The translations under genes and the position numbers were made by a program. Under the pieces are notes generated by a model that saw only the letters and a list, made by a program, of their open reading frames with translations, was not told the origin of the DNA and searched no databases. Shown here piece after piece: positions 7,373 through 32,281 of a stretch of DNA of 64,000 nucleotides (within the stretch, counting starts at the first letter, position 1; every line of letters starts with the position of its first letter). Source of the DNA: a phage. Location of the stretch: assembly GCA_012813795.1 (NCBI GenBank), contig GCA_012813795.1_4087.1; one strand, given 5' to 3'.

Positions 7373-7607
7373 TGGTTTCTCCTTATGTTATTTGTTATGA
7401 TTATAGCATACGAAACATTTTTGTCCCACCCATGAACCCCTTCACACGAGCTAAGCAATTACCCGCCCCTAGTTGCCCTAAGTTATAATAACAGGTCGTT
7501 ATTATCACTGGGGTTATAAGGTATTGGTTCATTTTTTAATTGAGTCAATTATTTTTTGACTCAATTATTTTCTGACTAATAGTTTTAGTACTGAATCATT
7601 TAATTCA

Positions 7608-26245: not shown

Positions 26246-27030
26246 CGTTTTAATTCCTATTAAAGTGAGTTAGGAGCGTTTCCCCCGTCTCGATGTAAAA
26301 CATTATACGCCGTTAAACATAGTATGCAAATACTTTCTGCAAATACTTTTAAAATAGTTTTCTTTCTATATAGGAGTACTATCATTCAGTACTGAATCAA
26401 TCCAGGGAGTACAATTATTCAGTACTATACCCTCAAAACGTCCTCAGTCGCTTTCTAACGCATTAATACACCTAAGCTATACATTTGCACCACTCCCAAC
26501 AATCCAGGGCTTTACGGGCCGTTTAAACGCGTTAAATTATTTTCAATTATTTTGTTTTTAGCTATTGACTCAGTACAGAAAAAGCGTATAATTACTACAT
26601 AGACGCGAGAAAGCGGATACCCCAGGGGGTGCGGAACTACGCCCAAAATTCAGTAAATTTAAAAAGGATACACTCCCGCACCCTAGCAGGTCAAAGCACT
26701 TTCTCAGTACTGAATCATAGTACCATAGTACGCCCCATGATAGCAAGCAAATTAATTAAAACTTTTTGCATCCAGGGTATTGCTTTATTTTTCCAGTACT
26801 GTATAATAGTTCCATCAAGTCGAGAAAGACTCAAGCCCAACGGGTGCATAGTTACGCCCAAAATTCAGTACTAGATTATTTTTTAAAAATATTCATCCAG
26901 GCGGTTGACATTGCCCCCAGTTTATTAGATAATGATTCCAGATTCAGAAAAATCTAACTCCAGATACTGCGGGGAAACCATCCCCACGCGGTAGGGGAAC
27001 TAATGGAAAAAACAGTATAAAATTTTGATT

Positions 27031-27170
27031 TAGCCGTCTATACATCCAGACGTTTAGCCGTCCAAACGTCTAGCGGTACAGCCATCTAGCAGTACAGCCA
27101 TCTAGCCACCTAGAGGGATAGCCATCTTTACTTCCAGACTTCTGGAGGGCTAGACATCTCTACGTCCAAA
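27031..27170. repeat. iteron-like direct repeats (gtacagccatctagc x2 plus degenerate tagcc / acgtct / ccatct units)
   Basis: Direct 15-16-mers at 27074-27089 and 27090-27105 with several partial copies in a stretch lacking ORFs. Confidence 0.6.
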
Positions 27171-27734
27171 ATCCACACAGGGTTACTACGCCCAAAATCC
27201 GTCAGTACTATACCATAGATCTATCTTTGAGAAGGGAGTATTCAGTACTGCCATCATAGTCCTCACTATGTTACCCTAGGAGGATGAAGACTATCATGTA
27301 GTACTGAATACTTTTAAGGGGAATATCATCACATTGCGTGATGCATTATATATTAGATTAATATCAGTACTGCTACCATTCTGTTAATAACAGTACTGTT
27401 TATATTACGAAAAAAAGAGGTTGTCAAAGATGAACCACTACATAGGAGGATTCAATCTCTTCTGTACTGTCTCACGACAGGGGGAATAAGGCTCTGAATT
27501 GTTTGCGGCAATCCATCACTCTATGTAGAACATTATACAGTACTGAATCATAATGTCAATAACTTTCTTACATTTGCAGTACTAAAATCGTATCTTCTGT
27601 ATCTCTTCAAAACTCATTATATCCCAATAATCCTATATGTCCCAACGTGAATTCCAACTTTCGAAGATCCAACTTTTATTTCATAGGTACTCCAAAATTT
27701 TTACGATCCAGATTTACGATGGAGTACTAACCAA

Positions 27735-27850
27735 CTTTTTGCTGGAGCCTCAAGGGGTATTCGGAATTTTCCCCAATGGGTAATCGGGATTTTTGACGAA
27801 GGGTAAATTGAACTTTTTTGAATAGGTGATTGGGAGTTTTCAGTACTGGT
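27735..27850. repeat. four degenerate ~19-bp direct repeats (gggtaNtcgGaatttt type)
   Basis: gggtattcggaatttt, gggtaatcgggattttt, gggtaaattgaactttttt, ggtgattgggagtttt in tandem. Confidence 0.5.
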
Positions 27851-28270
27851 CATTCCGTGATTACTTTTGATTACATTTGACATGTTATGCAAAGTTGCAG
27901 TACGGTAAAAATATGTAAATTTTGGGCGACTTCATTTGCCTACTTAGTGGGATATCAGTACTGAATCATATAGGGGTAATCCTTCAGTACTGAATACTTT
28001 CCTGTACTCTAGTACACTCTATTACACTCTAGTACTCAATACTAATCACTACTAACCACTACAATGATTATAAATGATTACTTAAATGTTTATATATGAT
28101 TACTTATGACTACCTATGATTACGGGGTTTAGCCTGGGGAGAATCCTAGTGATCGCATTTGTCCAGGCTGAATTTTAACAATTCAGACGTCGAGCAGGCT
28201 GAATTTTAACATATGCAACATATGTTAAAGCCTGTATAATGCTTACACTACGGAGCTTCCCCTAGCTATA

Positions 28271-28513
28271 TTACTTCCTATATATAAGCATTAAGATATA
28301 GTAGTACTGATTGTACTGATTGTACTGATTGTACTGATTGTACTGATTGTACTGATTGTACTGTACATTCTCTTTAACAGGACAAGGGTCTATTGCTATA
28401 TTAGTACATCTATACAATTCATATCTATTAAAGGGTAGTTCTATGAGAGATTTAATCCATACTTGTTCATTCTCTTTGAGTTTACTTATATAGAAGTCTT
28501 TATGATTATCCAT
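28271..28513 (-). CDS. family-2 small protein with internal (QYN)6 repeat
   Basis: 80-aa ORF; C-terminus LMLIYRK matches the family-2 C-terminal signature. Confidence 0.55.
   Translation of the reverse strand: MDNHKDFYISKLKENEQVWIKSLIELPFNRYELYRCTNIAIDPCPVKENVQYNQYNQYNQYNQYNQYNQYYYILMLIYRK
28304..28363. repeat. 9-bp microsatellite (gtactgatt) x 6.7 inside a CDS
   Basis: Perfect tandem copies starting at 28304, 28313, 28322, 28331, 28340, 28349, partial at 28358; encodes (QYN)n in gene 28271..28513. Confidence 0.9.
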
Positions 28514-28706
28514 AGATATATATTAACAACATTAGGTTAGAGTATAGTGCTTTAGTGTCATCTTGTTCTAGAGCTTCAATTGAGTTCGTTGTAGCTTTCC
28601 TAAAGCACATTTTTGCGTATGCACTTTTTGGATTAACGGGGGCGGTGGCTTCGCACCAGATTCTTTCGGTGGTTGATAGTTTACTCATATAGTATTCTTT
28701 ATACAT
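28506..28706 (-). CDS. family-2 small protein
   Basis: 66 aa; MYKEYYMSKL ... LMLLIYIYG. Confidence 0.55.
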   Translation of the reverse strand: MYKEYYMSKLSTTERIWCEATAPVNPKSAYAKMCFRKATTNSIEALEQDDTKALYSNLMLLIYIYG

Positions 28707-28707
28707 A

Positions 28708-28896
28708 TTAGTACCTGAATATAAGTAGTATAATGTTATAGTACTGATTAGTACTGCTAAGATTCTCTATAGAGCGAATAACAGTTAGGGAGTAGTTATA
28801 CTTGGAGTATGCATTATCCAGTGGGACTTTATATTGAGCACTAAGTGATAGTTCTGTAGGGAGAGTACTTAAGTAGAATTCTTTATGGTTTTGCAT
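28708..28896 (-). CDS. family-2 small protein
   Basis: 62 aa; MQNHKEFY ... ILLIFRY; 1-nt gap to neighbour. Confidence 0.6.
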   Translation of the reverse strand: MQNHKEFYLSTLPTELSLSAQYKVPLDNAYSKYNYSLTVIRSIENLSSTNQYYNIILLIFRY

Positions 28897-28897
28897 A

Positions 28898-29086
28898 TTA
28901 GTACCTGAATGTTAGCATTGTTATGTAGTACAGCATATATGGATTGTCATCGTATATTAGGGTGTACTTAGTACATTGTTGGAACATTATTTTTGCATGA
29001 TCTTTTATGCCAATAGGTTTTGTTGGCACATGGTGTTGGAGATGCATTGGGAGATGATCTTTATAAAATTCTTTATAGTTGTTCAT
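28898..29086 (-). CDS. family-2 small protein
   Basis: 62 aa; MNNYKEFY ... MLTFRY. Confidence 0.6.
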   Translation of the reverse strand: MNNYKEFYKDHLPMHLQHHVPTKPIGIKDHAKIMFQQCTKYTLIYDDNPYMLYYITMLTFRY

Positions 29087-29087
29087 A

Positions 29088-29273
29088 TTAGTACTTATAT
29101 ATTAGTAAAAGGATGTGATACAGTACTCGATTATAGTCGTCAATATCTATCGAGGATTTAGTGCACTTAACGAAGTAGTCTTTTTCGTAGTCTTTTTCTA
29201 TACCCAATGGTTCTGTTGGTACAAGGTATTGTAGATGCATTGGGAGTTTATCTATGTAGTATTCTTTATACAT
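29088..29273 (-). CDS. family-2 small protein
   Basis: 61 aa; MYKEYYIDKLPMHLQ ... LLLIYKY. Confidence 0.6.
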   Translation of the reverse strand: MYKEYYIDKLPMHLQYLVPTEPLGIEKDYEKDYFVKCTKSSIDIDDYNRVLYHILLLIYKY

Positions 29274-29288
29274 ATTAGTCCTTAGTCC

Positions 29289-29489
29289 TTAGTACTGGAA
29301 CGCGAGATACAGGGTGTGGTACAGTTGTACTTGAGAATTGTTTTCATTAACTTCTTCATTAAGTACTTGTTCAGTACAATTGCGGAAGTAATCAGCTTCA
29401 TATATACAGTTAATGTCGCGAGGTTCATCATCTAATAGATTGCCTTGTAGAAACTTTGGTAGTTCTTTAATATAGAATTCTTTATACAT
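29289..29489 (-). CDS. family-2 small protein
   Basis: 66 aa; MYKEFYIKELP ... LYLAFQY. Confidence 0.6.
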   Translation of the reverse strand: MYKEFYIKELPKFLQGNLLDDEPRDINCIYEADYFRNCTEQVLNEEVNENNSQVQLYHTLYLAFQY

Positions 29490-29497
29490 ATTAGTCC

Positions 29498-29692
29498 TTA
29501 GTACACGAACGTGAGGTACAGGGTGTGGTATAGTGCTCGATGATAGCTATCATAATCTTGTATACATGCTTTAGTGCACATAATGAATCTTGCTTTATTA
29601 ATCTCTGTGTTTAAGTTTCTAGGATGTTCTAGGTGATCGATTATGTACTGTGGGAAAAATTTTAGGTATAGTTCTTTGTGTTCATTTTTCAT
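29498..29692 (-). CDS. family-2 small protein
   Basis: 64 aa; MKNEHKELY ... LYLTFVY. Confidence 0.6.
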   Translation of the reverse strand: MKNEHKELYLKFFPQYIIDHLEHPRNLNTEINKARFIMCTKACIQDYDSYHRALYHTLYLTFVY

Positions 29693-29693
29693 A

Positions 29694-29876
29694 TTAGTAC
29701 CTGTATATAAGTGTTAGTACATTGTACAGGTTATAGATATCATCTTCATTTATTGCAGATTCTGTTTGATATCGGTAGAATATAGTTTGGCTCTTATCTT
29801 TGAAATCTACAGGTTCGCGGGGAATAAGCTTTTGTAGATCAATACTAAGAAAACTTATGTAGTATTCTTTATACAT
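29694..29876 (-). CDS. family-2 small protein
   Basis: Trimmed to Met MYKEYYISFL at 29876; ends LTLIYRY. Confidence 0.55.
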   Translation of the reverse strand: MYKEYYISFLSIDLQKLIPREPVDFKDKSQTIFYRYQTESAINEDDIYNLYNVLTLIYRY

Positions 29877-30540
29877 AGTTTGTAATATACGTAATGAGGT
29901 GATGAATTTTCTTATTAGTACTGATAAGTTCATGTACATGTTTTGTTAGATTGTACGCGTTTTTGTACAGTACAGGGTTATCGATTACAGTACTGTACAT
30001 GAATAGTTCTTCTTCTGATAATTCTTTGCCTTGTAGTTCTTTGAGGAATTCTACAATTGATTTAGTTTCTTCTGTACGTTGTGCTTGCCAGAAGTGCATA
30101 TTCTCGTGTATTTCTTCTGCACCCATACTGTATATGCCACCCATTTGGAATTGTGCTGTATTGACATCGTGGGAGGTGTTACAATTCCCGAAGAAGTATG
30201 TATTCCCGAAGTATAGCATTAAAGTGCACGGGGTATTATCCAACTGCATATGGATGATGAAGGATGCGTTCTTTAGTACCTTCATGCTCGTATTAGTACT
30301 CAATACTTTTAAATCAGTATTATAGATATTCATATAATGAACAGCTATATTATTTTTCTTCATGTACAATTCAAGGTTCTTTGATACGTTAACTCCATTT
30401 GTACTGGTTTTTTTACTTTTCTTTAGGTTCTTTAGTACATTAGGATGATAAGTATATGCATTAGTGGTAGATTCAGCCTGGATTGATTGCAGGTACTTAA
30501 AGTGCTGTAGGTATCGTTTGCTTTGTGGATTAAGTTTCAT
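29869..30540 (-). CDS. hypothetical protein embedded in the family-2 array (SEEELFMYS motif)
   Basis: 223-aa ORF; internal SEEELFMYSTVIDNP resembles the EEE-FQ-SL motif family. Confidence 0.5.
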   Translation of the reverse strand: MKLNPQSKRYLQHFKYLQSIQAESTTNAYTYHPNVLKNLKKSKKTSTNGVNVSKNLELYMKKNNIAVHYMNIYNTDLKVLSTNTSMKVLKNASFIIHMQLDNTPCTLMLYFGNTYFFGNCNTSHDVNTAQFQMGGIYSMGAEEIHENMHFWQAQRTEETKSIVEFLKELQGKELSEEELFMYSTVIDNPVLYKNAYNLTKHVHELISTNKKIHHLITYITNYV

Positions 30541-30576
30541 TTGGTTTCCTTAAATTGCTTATACTGCTTATACTGT

Positions 30577-30756
30577 TTATACTGTTACAAGCGAGATTAT
30601 TTCTCTGTATGGGTTATTTTTTGTCAGGACGTGATGAATGCAGCTATTGAGATTAATAGTTTTAGTACTTTTTGTTCCCAGGTTGTAGTACTTCACGAAG
30701 GTGTCGTACATGAAACGATCCTTAGTACTGAGATTATCGGTGTAGTACTCTAGCAT
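30577..30756 (-). CDS. family-2 small protein (59 aa, below the ORF-track threshold)
   Basis: Hand-translated MLEYYTDNLSTKDRFMYDTFVKYYNLG... Confidence 0.4.
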   Translation of the reverse strand: MLEYYTDNLSTKDRFMYDTFVKYYNLGTKSTKTINLNSCIHHVLTKNNPYREIISLVTV

Positions 30757-30766
30757 AGTTTATTCC

Positions 30767-30946
30767 TTATATAGAGATAAGTTTCAGTACTTCATTATAT
30801 GTGAACATTTCGTCCTGTGCCAATTTAGTACAATTCAGGAGTAATTTTCTTTGTTTTCTTTGCGAACTACAATGATAGCTCATTGAGAAGTAATTGAAGC
30901 CGTATCTATCTTCTGGGTAAATTACGCTTAGGTAGTATTCTAGCAT
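30767..30946 (-). CDS. family-2 small protein (59 aa, below the ORF-track threshold)
   Basis: Hand-translated MLEYYLSVIYPEDRYGFNYFSMSYHCSS... Confidence 0.4.
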   Translation of the reverse strand: MLEYYLSVIYPEDRYGFNYFSMSYHCSSQRKQRKLLLNCTKLAQDEMFTYNEVLKLISI

Positions 30947-30954
30947 TGTATTCT

Positions 30955-31140
30955 CTACATTTCAATAAGTTTAAGTACTGCTCTGTACGTGTACTTAGTT
31001 GTTAGTGTTTCTTTTATAGCAGTACAGAAGTAATGTTGTTTGTCTCTAATACTGCCGCGTTTGTAGTACCATACATGGGAGTTGTGGCTGTACTTGTCTC
31101 TGTCGGATAGTTTTTGGTAATAGTAGCTTTTATGATTCAT
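30955..31140 (-). CDS. family-2 small protein
   Basis: 61 aa; MNHKSYYYQKL ... LKLIEM. Confidence 0.55.
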   Translation of the reverse strand: MNHKSYYYQKLSDRDKYSHNSHVWYYKRGSIRDKQHYFCTAIKETLTTKYTYRAVLKLIEM

Positions 31141-31349
31141 TGTAATGTAATTAGCCTTACTATATTAAAGTACTCGGTCCCTGTTGCACCTTGTAGAATA
31201 TTACGCACGACATGTTTGTGGTGCTGGATGATTGCTGAAGGTGCGGTTCTTTTAAGTTTTTTAAAAGTACTGAATTCTTGTTTAAGGATGAACTGTATAT
31301 CTTTAGGGAGAATATCTATGTAGTACTGATGAATGTTCATAGTTTTCAT
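31137..31349 (-). CDS. family-2 small protein
   Basis: 70 aa; MKTMNIHQYYIDILP ... VRLITLQ. Confidence 0.55.
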   Translation of the reverse strand: MKTMNIHQYYIDILPKDIQFILKQEFSTFKKLKRTAPSAIIQHHKHVVRNILQGATGTEYFNIVRLITLQ

Positions 31350-31359
31350 ATAGCACCTT

Positions 31360-31551
31360 TTAGAACTTAAAGATGAGGTACATGATAGATAGGTACTTAG
31401 TTTCAGTAAACTGTTGTTCTATTGCATAACGTGTCTCCAACCTGAAATCGTAATTATAAAAGGGACTATTCTTTCTCATAGGTTCTTGAGGGAATGAGTC
31501 CCTGTATTGTTCGTGTAGTTTACTACAGTAGAAATCTTTATGATTATTCAT
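31360..31551 (-). CDS. family-2 small protein
   Basis: 63 aa; MNNHKDFY ... MYLIFKF. Confidence 0.6.
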   Translation of the reverse strand: MNNHKDFYCSKLHEQYRDSFPQEPMRKNSPFYNYDFRLETRYAIEQQFTETKYLSIMYLIFKF

Positions 31552-31753
31552 AGAAGTATATTAGTCCGATTAAACTTGAGTACTGCATATTTTTGTTATT
31601 GCATTCAATAGCTTCTAGAGTACTACGTATACAATTATTAAAGCAATTCCTGGTGTTGGGTGTGTCTATACTTACAGGTGGTACACTCCTTAGAAACATT
31701 TGTTCTTCGTTGCTGAGGTATTTGGTGTAGAATTCTTTATGTTCAGTTTTCAT
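31544..31753 (-). CDS. family-2 small protein
   Basis: 69 aa; MKTEHKEFY ... IGLIYFYE. Confidence 0.6.
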   Translation of the reverse strand: MKTEHKEFYTKYLSNEEQMFLRSVPPVSIDTPNTRNCFNNCIRSTLEAIECNNKNMQYSSLIGLIYFYE

Positions 31754-31754
31754 A

Positions 31755-31955
31755 TTAGTACTCCAATAGTAGTGTTAAGATGAAATAGTACTGCATACTT
31801 TCGTTACCTTCTATTGCATTCCAGATGAGGTTATTCCTGTTTGAGTTCAGGAGTCCTGGTATGCGTTTAGCATTTTTCAGTACTGTTTTTTGGTTCTTCA
31901 TTGCATCTTGTAGGCCAGGGTGCAATGCATTGATGTAGTACGGGTTAATGTTCAT
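31755..31955 (-). CDS. family-2 small protein
   Basis: 66 aa; MNINPYYINAL ... LTLLLEY. Confidence 0.55.
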   Translation of the reverse strand: MNINPYYINALHPGLQDAMKNQKTVLKNAKRIPGLLNSNRNNLIWNAIEGNESMQYYFILTLLLEY

Positions 31956-32179
31956 ATAGCCACTAGTACTAAGATATTTAAAAATTGTTTACGGGTATCC
32001 CCTAATAGTGTATTGTGTACAATGCTCACAGTAAGGGTATTCAGTGCACTACCAAGCATAAGGTTACACCCAGTGCTCTTATGATTTTTTAGTTCAATTA
32101 GCCACGATTGGTCAGAGAGAACCTTTGCGTACTCTAGTTCATTTAGTTCATTGATGTAGTACTTTAGAGCATATGGCAT
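31952..32179 (-). CDS. family-2 small protein; first gene of the array
   Basis: 75 aa; MPYALKYYINEL ... LVLVAI. Confidence 0.55.
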   Translation of the reverse strand: MPYALKYYINELNELEYAKVLSDQSWLIELKNHKSTGCNLMLGSALNTLTVSIVHNTLLGDTRKQFLNILVLVAI

Positions 32180-32281
32180 GTACGATTCTCCTTAGATTTC
32201 TCATATAGTACATCAGTACTGAAAGGATGTCAAGGGTTTTCTTTTTTGATTAAATATACTATAATGAATAAAGGAGGAAAT

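What the first reader, a model, noticed from the sequence alone, without database searches (positions are those of the whole stretch)
28304..28363. In-frame 9-bp microsatellite inside a family-2 gene
Six full and one partial perfect copies of gtactgatt encode (QYN)6 in the protein. Because the unit is 9 bp, slippage would change repeat number without breaking the frame, so this is a candidate hypervariable tract.
Basis: seen in the sequence. Interest (0 to 1): 0.5.

Follow-up and report, generated by a model that had tools for sequence, protein, structure and literature searches.

The report
In-frame 9-bp repeat expansion, phage gene
A small early gene of a jumbo E. coli phage carries a recent in-frame expansion of a 9-base unit, from the usual one copy to six; it adds 15 amino acids (five Gln-Tyr-Asn units) and is a real but ordinary kind of length polymorphism.

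Summary
Window 28304-28363 is GTACTGATT x6 plus GTACTG, 100% perfect and far beyond chance. It lies in frame in the minus-strand ORF 28271-28513 (80 aa) and encodes (QYN)6.

The window is an Asteriusvirus (121Q/PBECO4-like jumbo coliphage). The gene belongs to phrog_11711, a family of ~60-aa proteins of unknown function. It is the last gene of a tandem paralog array and lies about 330 bp from the predicted terminal-repeat boundary.

All orthologues carry a 15-bp proto-repeat, CAG TAY AAT CAG TAC. Sixteen of 17 GenBank genomes and 17 of 19 metagenomic protein clusters have one unit. Phage slurp01 and one metagenomic allele have two. Only this phage has six. The nearest allele differs by 4 substitutions in 198 nt, none of the core ones synonymous, plus the 45-bp indel, so the expansion is recent.

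Best explanation: replication slippage at a conserved proto-repeat, tolerated because it sits where a loop meets the C-terminal helix.

Seen in passing and more intriguing: the palindrome AGTACT (CAGTACTG) is 6-12 times over-represented across this phage clade.

The parts
28304..28363 (-). Perfect 9-bp tandem repeat: 6 full units plus 6 bp. The coding-strand unit is CAG TAC AAT, encoding (QYN)6.
   Evidence: codon view.
28271..28513 (-). 80-aa ORF that carries the repeat. It is a member of phrog_11711, and its start overlaps the stop of the upstream paralog by 8 nt.
   Evidence: ORF; phrog_11711, E=2e-12 over residues 3-80; dN/dS 0.16-0.57 against the six more distant orthologues; orthologues in all Asteriusvirus genomes inspected.
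28271..29873 (-). Head-to-tail array of eight ~60-aa paralogs of the same family: 28271-28513, 28506-28706, 28708-28896, 28898-29086, 29088-29273, 29289-29489, 29498-29692 and 29694-29873. The repeat-bearing gene is the last one in the direction of transcription.
   Evidence: Alignment A1; family HMM hits with E from 1e-26 to 6e-21.
31360..31955 (-). Two or three more diverged members of the same family, upstream in the same minus-strand gene block.
   Evidence: Family HMM E=1e-13, 1.6e-10 and 7e-4.
32205..32233 (-). Sigma-70-like promoter match (TTGACA-17-TACTAT, with CAGTACTG in the spacer) in the divergent intergenic region at the head of the minus-strand block. That it drives the array is inferred, not shown.
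   Evidence: 10 of 12 matches; sequence context at 32214.
27944..27945 (.). Context: the predicted boundary of the ~20.5-kb direct terminal repeat (...GCCTACT|TAGTGG), about 330 bp downstream of the gene's stop codon.
   Evidence: The end of the G17 record and the PhageTerm boundary of fEgEco12 map to the same sequence. The fEgEco12 terminal repeat of 20,993 bp, confirmed by restriction digests, is reported in PMC13070987.

Best explanation
The tract is a recent, lineage-specific, in-frame expansion from one to six units of a 9-bp unit, produced by slipped-strand mispairing or by unequal recombination between replicating genomes. The substrate is a 15-bp proto-repeat, CAG TAY AAT CAG TAC, that every orthologue of this gene carries.

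The gene encodes a small four-helix early protein of unknown function from a family restricted to Asteriusvirus-like jumbo phages. The unit sits at the first turn of the C-terminal helix, just after a loop, in the most length-variable part of the family. Adding five QYN tripeptides is therefore tolerated and is probably neutral or only mildly modulating. The result is a length polymorphism between isolates, not an expression switch.

Shown: the repeat, the frame, the gene family, the copy-number differences, the near-identical single-copy allele, and the position in the model. Inferred: slippage as the mechanism, and neutrality.
For: - **Repeat and age.** It is perfect, with 51 consecutive period-9 matches against at most 13 in simulations. 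No substitution separates the units, which points to a recent origin.
- **Proto-repeat.** All 17 GenBank orthologues and 19 metagenomic clusters have CAG/GAG TAY AAT/AAA CAG TAC at this site.
- **Nearest allele.** The contig from Logan run ERR14127509 (P0001) differs by only 4 substitutions in 198 nt plus one clean 45-bp, five-unit indel. dS is 0 over the 162-nt core.
- **Independent events at the same site.** The slurp01 duplication uses the TAT form of the unit and the window uses the TAC form. P0002 has a third, diverged two-unit state.
- **Other 9-bp duplications in the orthogroup.** TH47 has (AAAGAGTAT)x3, giving (KEY)3 at the N-terminus. P0016 has EEDEED.
- **Slipped intermediates.** The GTAC core of each unit is self-complementary. 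The single strands fold into small hairpins (-7.0 and -7.8 kcal/mol, z = -2.7 and -3.9) that could stabilise them.
- **Tolerance.** The insert falls in the gap-rich linker of the paralog alignment. The AlphaFold model of the single-copy allele (pLDDT 82) puts the unit at residues 51-53, the start of helix 4 (50-64), after loop 42-49. In the six-copy model only this region loses confidence.
- **Real, constrained gene.** dN/dS is 0.16-0.57 against the six more distant orthologues.
Against: - No reads are available, so neither an assembly artefact nor within-population variation can be excluded.
- The six-copy allele is a single observation.
- At 80 aa the protein is longer than all 20 small-protein representatives of the family (60-69 aa) among 1.84 billion sequences. 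That may mean longer alleles are usually selected against, or that this one has a changed function.
- Neutrality is inferred only from position and from tolerance in a presumably viable phage.
- The function of the family is unknown: no Pfam hit and no structural match.
Confidence: 0.8

Rival explanations
1. Adaptive hypervariable tract. Copy number changes at high frequency and is selected, because the length of the QYN segment tunes the activity or target specificity of an early host-takeover or counter-defence protein.
For: There are at least two or three independent copy-number changes at exactly this site, and further 9-bp duplications in the same orthogroup. The gene sits in a tandem array of fast-diverging small paralogs in an early-type gene block next to the terminal repeat, the kind of locus where arms-race genes are found (general knowledge). 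Some close orthologue pairs have dN/dS near or above 1 (121Q, TH47 and fEgEco12), though these rest on very few substitutions.
Against: Thirty-three of the 36 alleles surveyed have a single unit, two distinct alleles have two units (slurp01 counted in both the GenBank and cluster sets), and none has three to five. A hypervariable tract should show a spread of lengths. A 9-bp in-frame unit gives no on/off switch. dN/dS against the six more distant orthologues is 0.16-0.57. There are no data on within-population variation or on function.
Confidence: 0.12
2. A DNA-level element rather than a protein feature. The array would be a cluster of half-sites (CAGTAC) of the clade-wide over-represented palindrome CAGTACTG, or part of the packaging and terminus region, since it lies about 360 bp from the predicted terminal-repeat boundary.
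For: The unit contains CAGTAC, the second most over-represented hexamer in the window (146 against 11.6 expected). Ten full CAGTACTG sites lie in the adjacent ORF-free region, and one lies 10 bp beyond the boundary. The boundary is at 27944|27945.
Against: Only one of the seven units forms a full AGTACT; the others read TGTACT. Given how common the motif is in this genome, a 9-bp unit would contain GTACTG or CAGTAC by chance about 4% of the time (my estimate from the counts), so the link is weak. The array is absent from every relative, including those with the same terminus sequence, so it cannot be needed for packaging. The expansion preserves the reading frame and codon register of a constrained gene.
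Confidence: 0.05
3. An assembly or sequencing artefact: a single unit, or a shorter tract, was inflated during assembly or polishing.
For: There is only one observation of the six-copy allele, and no reads are available.
Against: The tract is 60 bp, shorter than ordinary short reads, and it is flanked by unique sequence. It is an exact multiple of the unit, in frame and free of errors, unlike typical long-read indel noise. A two-unit state exists in independently sequenced phages.
Confidence: 0.03

Closest known systems
In-frame coding tandem repeats (VNTRs) that vary between strains, such as the 24-bp spa Xr repeats and 18-bp Ser-Asp repeats of Staphylococcus aureus surface proteins (from general knowledge)
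   Same: The unit is a multiple of three. Copies are head-to-tail, and copy number differs between isolates without loss of the reading frame. Slippage or unequal recombination is the accepted mechanism. Such tracts can serve as typing markers.
   Different: Here the unit is only 9 bp, and the host gene is an ~60-aa phage early protein of unknown function rather than a surface protein. Almost all relatives have a single unit, so the locus is a one-lineage expansion rather than an established variable array.
Simple-sequence contingency loci (phase-variable genes of Haemophilus, Neisseria and Campylobacter; from general knowledge)
   Same: A short repeat tract inside or next to a gene that is prone to slipped-strand mispairing.
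   Different: Contingency loci switch expression on and off through frameshifts or changes in promoter spacing. A 9-bp in-frame unit cannot do that, and high-frequency reversible switching has not been shown here.
Collagen-like Gly-X-Y repeats (9-bp period) in phage tail-fibre and prophage hyaluronidase genes, whose copy number differs between phages (from general knowledge)
   Same: In-frame repeats with a 9-bp period in phage genes, with length differences between related phages.
   Different: Those repeats build a triple-helical structural domain in virion proteins. This tract is Q-Y-N, lies in a small helical non-virion-type protein, and has no glycine periodicity.
Q/N/Y-rich oligopeptide repeats of prion-forming domains, such as the yeast Sup35 repeat PQGGYQQYN (from general knowledge)
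   Same: Composition restricted to Gln, Asn and Tyr, and a tandem arrangement. In Sup35 copy number is known to modulate aggregation.
   Different: The tract is only 22 residues (Q7, Y9, N6) in an 80-aa protein, far shorter than recognised prion domains. It is modelled as a helix or linker at low confidence. Nothing tested here bears on aggregation.
PHROG family phrog_11711 (unknown function)
   Same: Full-length HMM match for this gene and its neighbours (E from 2e-12 to 3.9e-27).
   Different: At 80 aa this allele is longer than all 20 small-protein representatives of the family (60-69 aa), solely because of the repeat.

Membership tests
Coding tandem repeat / VNTR | Several head-to-tail copies with high identity, beyond what chance gives | tested here: met
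   6.7 copies at 100% identity. The run of 51 matches compares with at most 13 in 200 simulations.
Coding tandem repeat / VNTR | Unit length a multiple of three, and in frame in a real gene | tested here: met
   A 9-bp unit inside ORF 28271-28513. The gene matches phrog_11711, has dN/dS of 0.16-0.57 against the six more distant orthologues, and has orthologues in all 17 genomes checked.
Coding tandem repeat / VNTR | Copy number differs among related genomes | tested here: met
   Copy number is 1 in most relatives, 2 in slurp01 and Logan P0002, and 6 in the window.
Hypervariable / contingency locus | A change in repeat length switches expression, by frameshift or by promoter spacing | tested here: not met
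   The unit is 9 bp and in frame, and the tract is internal to the coding sequence, 150 nt from the start codon.
Hypervariable / contingency locus | High-frequency, reversible length changes within a population | not testable with these tools
   No reads or passage data are available. Across genomes the length distribution is 1, 2 and 6, with no intermediate lengths.
Hypervariable / contingency locus | A gene product under diversifying selection at the host interface | tested here: inconclusive
   The function is unknown. dN/dS is below 1 for distant pairs and about 1 or more for a few close pairs, which rest on few changes.
phrog_11711 | Significant full-length match to the family profile | tested here: met
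   E=2e-12 over residues 3-80, matching profile positions 1-62 of 62. The local family HMM gives E=2.7e-26.
Prion-like Q/N-rich domain | A long Q/N-rich disordered region of roughly 60 residues or more, as used by PLAAC-type predictors (general knowledge) | tested here: not met
   The tract spans 22 residues of an 80-aa protein, and part of it is modelled as helix.

The most novel reading that the evidence does not exclude
The site is a recurrent slippage hot spot seeded by the clade-wide over-represented motif CAGTAC(TG). Because the genome is saturated with this palindrome, two CAGTAC copies lie 9 bp apart in a tolerant loop. Perhaps aided by whatever protein or lesion acts at AGTACT sites, this drives repeated length changes that tune the C-terminal helix of an early host-takeover protein. 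On this reading the tract is a phage analogue of an in-frame contingency module.
Probability: 0.08. Interest if true: 0.5.

Novelty: new member of a known kind. Interest (0 to 1): 0.2.

Why it matters
On its own the tract matters little. It is a clean example of how very small phage proteins gain length by in-frame slippage, and it makes a convenient PCR-sizing marker (a 45-bp difference) for telling this phage from its relatives. It would matter more if deep sequencing showed the tract to be unstable, because that would give a simple handle on an otherwise opaque family of early proteins next to the terminal repeat.

The more promising lead is the observation made in passing. AGTACT (CAGTACTG) is strongly over-represented in Asteriusvirus, RaK2 and GAP32 and scarce in a 50-kb E. 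coli K-12 sample. I found no mention of it in the open-access papers on these phages that were searched.

Tried and rejected
- **Looking for the six-copy allele elsewhere.** The exact 80-aa protein is not on record. The flank-anchored pattern for two or more units found nothing in JGI metagenomes or IMG/VR. The three-unit pattern in IMG/VR, and the degenerate pattern in JGI metagenomes and GTDB genomes, returned 39 loci. None shares flanks or the N-terminal protein sequence with this gene, so they are unrelated repeats with the same unit. The flank pattern in IMG/VR recovered only 121Q itself.
- **Assigning a function.** There is no Pfam hit, and the PHROG family has no known function. A profile search of 1.84 billion representatives found only 23 matches: 20 proteins of 60-69 aa and three weak outliers. 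Foldseek of both models against BFVD, and of the single-copy model against the PDB, gave nothing with E below 0.04.
- **RNA explanations.** No Rfam family (best E=0.95, a plant miRNA model) and no tRNA lies in or near the tract.
- **A link to the CAGTACTG motif.** I considered it, but by my estimate from the counts it is no more than about a 4% coincidence given how common the motif is, and only one unit forms a full AGTACT. It is kept only as a low-probability reading.
- **A role in packaging.** Rejected, because relatives with the same terminus sequence lack the array.
- **Literature.** A search for CAGTACTG returned only primer-type hits. No paper on Asteriusvirus or RaK2-like phages in the library contains AGTACT. 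The fEgEco12 paper did not use ScaI.

Full report

Yes. Window 28304-28363 reads GTACTGATT six times followed by GTACTG. Tandem Repeats Finder reports period 9, 6.7 copies, 100% matches, no indels and score 120, the highest of 50 rows in the window. The repeat finder gives the same register.

The run of positions where a base equals the base 9 further on is 51 long. In 200 first-order Markov simulations of the window the longest such run was 13. In the real window the longest run for any other period from 4 to 15 is 12.

The tract lies inside the minus-strand ORF 28271..28513 (80 aa, ATG start). On the coding strand the unit is CAG TAC AAT. The protein reads ...KENV-(QYN)6-QYYYILMLIYRK. No + strand ORF of 50 aa or more overlaps the tract.

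**2. What the sequence is**

The window is an Asteriusvirus, a 121Q/PBECO4-like jumbo coliphage.
- Megablast of 27000-31200 hits 37 phage records, 33 named Escherichia phage and 4 Salmonella phage, at 80-95% identity. Every record whose taxonomy was inspected is Asteriusvirus or unclassified, and none covers 80% or more of the query, so this phage is not in the collection.
- The ORF is a real gene. It matches phrog_11711 over its full length (E=2e-12).
- An orthologue sits at the same position in all 17 GenBank genomes inspected.
- dN/dS against the six more distant orthologues is 0.16-0.57.

The gene is the last, most downstream member of a head-to-tail array of eight ~60-aa paralogs (28271-29873). 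Two or three more diverged members lie at 31360-31955.

The family is small and confined to this phage group. A profile search of 1.84 billion representative proteins found 23 matches: 20 proteins of 60-69 aa and three weak outliers of 2860, 362 and 41 aa. At 80 aa the window's allele is longer than every small-protein member.

The function is unknown. There is no Pfam hit, and Foldseek found nothing convincing in BFVD or the PDB.

**3. Copy number in relatives**

Seen codon by codon, every orthologue carries a proto-repeat at this site: GTA CAG TAY AAT CAG TAC TAC, which is 1.67 units.
- Sixteen of 17 GenBank genomes have this single-unit state or a diverged form of it: 121Q, G17, PBECO4, UB, CRJP21, SD-2_S15, UE-S1, ph0011, fEgEco12, vB_Ec-M-J, EC.P1, WPEC3, TH47, CMSTMSU and A4.
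- Phage slurp01 has two units, both in the TAT form (CAG TAT AAT CAG TAT AAT CAG TAC). The window's units are all in the TAC form, so these are independent events.
- Among 19 metagenomic protein clusters, 17 have one unit. One is slurp01 itself. One, P0002 from Logan run SRR23924980, has a diverged two-unit state (EYHQYNQYY).
- The nearest allele is a contig from Logan run ERR14127509 (P0001). It differs from the window's gene by 4 substitutions in 198 nt plus one clean 45-bp, five-unit gap. dS is 0 over the 162-nt core.

The expansion is therefore recent, which fits the absence of any substitution among the units. The six-unit allele itself was found nowhere else.

The same orthogroup shows other 9-bp in-frame duplications. 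TH47 has (AAAGAGTAT)x3, giving (KEY)3 at the N-terminus. P0016 has EEDEED next to the QYN site.

**4. Where it sits in the protein**

The paralog alignment has three conserved blocks: an N-terminal block (M.KEFY..L), a central C-T motif, and a C-terminal LY..L.LIYRY block. The repeat falls in the gap-rich linker before the C-terminal block.

AlphaFold2 on the single-copy allele P0001 gives mean pLDDT 82.3 and four helices: 4-10, 14-22, 30-41 and 50-64. The single E/Q-Y-N unit occupies residues 51-53, the first turn of helix 4, right after loop 42-49.

The six-copy protein gives the same first three helices. It has a low-confidence stretch (pLDDT below 50 at residues 47-54 and 57-61) and a longer terminal helix, 58-79. 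The extra 15 residues therefore either lengthen the loop or extend helix 4. Which of the two is not resolved.

**5. How it most likely arose and works**

The best-supported account is slipped-strand mispairing, or unequal exchange between replicating genomes, at the conserved 15-bp proto-repeat. This is inferred from the perfect unit identity, the clean five-unit indel against the nearest allele, and the independent duplication in slurp01.

Each unit contains the self-complementary GTAC. Single strands of the tract fold into small hairpins (-7.0 and -7.8 kcal/mol, z = -2.7 and -3.9), which could stabilise slipped intermediates. RaK2-like phages carry a T4-type replisome and recombination genes (PMC5259590; the RaK2 annotation lists UvsX, UvsW, gp41 and gp61). 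That is a setting in which such events are common (general knowledge).

The outcome is a length polymorphism in a tolerant segment. Nothing indicates an expression switch. I put this explanation at about 0.8.

**6. Rival explanations**

- *Adaptive hypervariable tract (about 0.12).* It is favoured by recurrent events at one site, and by the gene's place in a fast-evolving early paralog array. It is weakened by the length distribution: 33 of 36 surveyed alleles have one unit and none has three to five. dN/dS below 1 for distant pairs and the lack of any population data also count against it.
- *DNA-level element tied to the CAGTACTG motif or to the terminus (about 0.05).* The unit does contain CAGTAC. 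However, only one unit forms a full AGTACT, the coincidence is only about 4% given how common the motif is (my estimate), and relatives with the same terminus lack the array.
- *Assembly artefact (about 0.03).* This is unlikely for a 60-bp, error-free, in-frame tract, but it cannot be excluded without reads.

**7. Genomic context**

- The G17 record ends at ...CTCTGCCTACT. The same sequence continues as TAGTGG... at the inner edge of its left terminal repeat, which makes the repeat 20,668 bp long.
- The PhageTerm-defined and digest-confirmed 20,993-bp terminal repeat of fEgEco12 (PMC13070987) starts at the homologous point.
- In the window this boundary is at 27944|27945. The other boundary is near 7454.
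- The repeat-bearing gene is therefore the last unique gene, about 330 bp from the site where concatemers are presumably cut. That cutting occurs there is an inference.

**8. Comparison with known kinds, and verdict**

The tract meets every tested criterion of an in-frame coding VNTR. It fails the defining criterion of a contingency locus, because it cannot switch expression. It is a full-length member of phrog_11711. It is too short to count as a prion-like domain.

It is a new member of a known kind. Interest is low (0.2).

**9. Noticed in passing: over-representation of AGTACT**

- AGTACT is the most over-represented hexamer in the window: 252 copies against 21.6 expected from base composition. 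CAGTACTG occurs 52 times against about 1 expected.
- The excess holds in all three reading frames, at about three times the codon-usage expectation. It is stronger in non-coding DNA: 7.6 per kb against 3.0 per kb in coding DNA.
- The motif sits between the -35 and -10 elements of consensus early promoters, as TTGACA-N8-CAGTACTG-TATAAT.
- It is equally over-represented far from the terminal repeat in 121Q (133 against 16.8 in 50 kb). It is also over-represented in Klebsiella phage RaK2 (58 against 8.2 in 25 kb) and Cronobacter phage GAP32 (53 against 8.4 in 25 kb).
- It is scarce in a 50-kb sample of E. coli K-12 (3 against 11.6 expected).
- Individual sites are better conserved between the window and its relatives than background hexamers are: 66-94% against 47-79%.
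- None of the open-access papers on these phages in the library contains AGTACT.

I have no tested explanation for this.

Noticed in passing
whole window, densest at 8000-32000; also L024 (121Q 200-250 kb), L062 (RaK2), L063 (GAP32) and L066 (E. coli K-12): The palindrome AGTACT (extended form CAGTACTG) is the most over-represented hexamer: 252 copies against 21.6 expected, and 52 against about 1 for the octamer. The excess holds in all three reading frames and is stronger in non-coding DNA. It is conserved across Asteriusvirus, RaK2 and GAP32, and the motif is scarce in a 50-kb E. coli K-12 sample (3 against 11.6). Sites are better conserved than background hexamers. No open-access paper on these phages in the library mentions it. 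Its function is unknown.
   Followed up: partly
window 7454 and 27944|27945: These are the predicted boundaries of a ~20.5-kb direct terminal repeat, placed by homology with the ends of the G17 record and with the PhageTerm and digest-defined repeat of fEgEco12. The sign of the GC skew flips at about 28 kb.
   Followed up: partly
window 26250-27944: A 1.7-kb stretch at the right end of the terminal repeat has no ORF longer than about 80 aa. It is packed with dispersed repeats: TCAGTACTGAATCATA x7, ACTACGCCCAAAAT x4, a 70-nt pair and 24-nt TTTAGCCGTC... units. It also holds a perfect consensus sigma-70 promoter on the minus strand (27559-27532). No Rfam family or tRNA was found.
   Followed up: partly
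window 28006-28123 and 28164-28211: Just outside the terminal-repeat boundary lie four adjoining short arrays with a 10-bp period (ACTCTAGTAC, TCACTACTAA, AATGATTATA, TATGATTACC). Beyond them is an exact 17-nt duplicate, CAGGCTGAATTTTAACA, 31 bp apart. These may be part of the packaging or terminus region; this was not tested.
   Followed up: no
window 11068, 11562, 16298, 18452, 18778 and 27538 (minus strand): A recurring early-promoter cassette, TTGACA-N8-CAGTACTG-TATAAT, is followed about 15 nt later by a GGGGAG...CTCCCC hairpin. It is repeated through the terminal repeat upstream of small genes.
   Followed up: no
window 28001-32000: The paralog array is transcribed from the minus strand, yet it has positive GC skew on the + strand, so its coding strand is C-rich. 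This is the opposite of the other minus-strand genes in the window. It probably reflects the Tyr/Leu/His/Asn-rich, Gly/Ala-poor composition of these proteins.
   Followed up: no
L012 (phage TH47), the 5' end of the orthologous gene: A separate 9-bp in-frame repeat, (AAAGAGTAT)x2 plus AAAGAGTAC, encodes (KEY)3 at the N-terminus. Metagenomic allele P0016 has EEDEED beside the QYN site.
   Followed up: yes
L031, L040, L045, L058 and other loci: Unrelated metagenomic and bacterial contigs carry the same CAGTAYAAT unit in arrays of up to 8 copies. They share no flank or protein similarity with the phage gene.
   Followed up: partly
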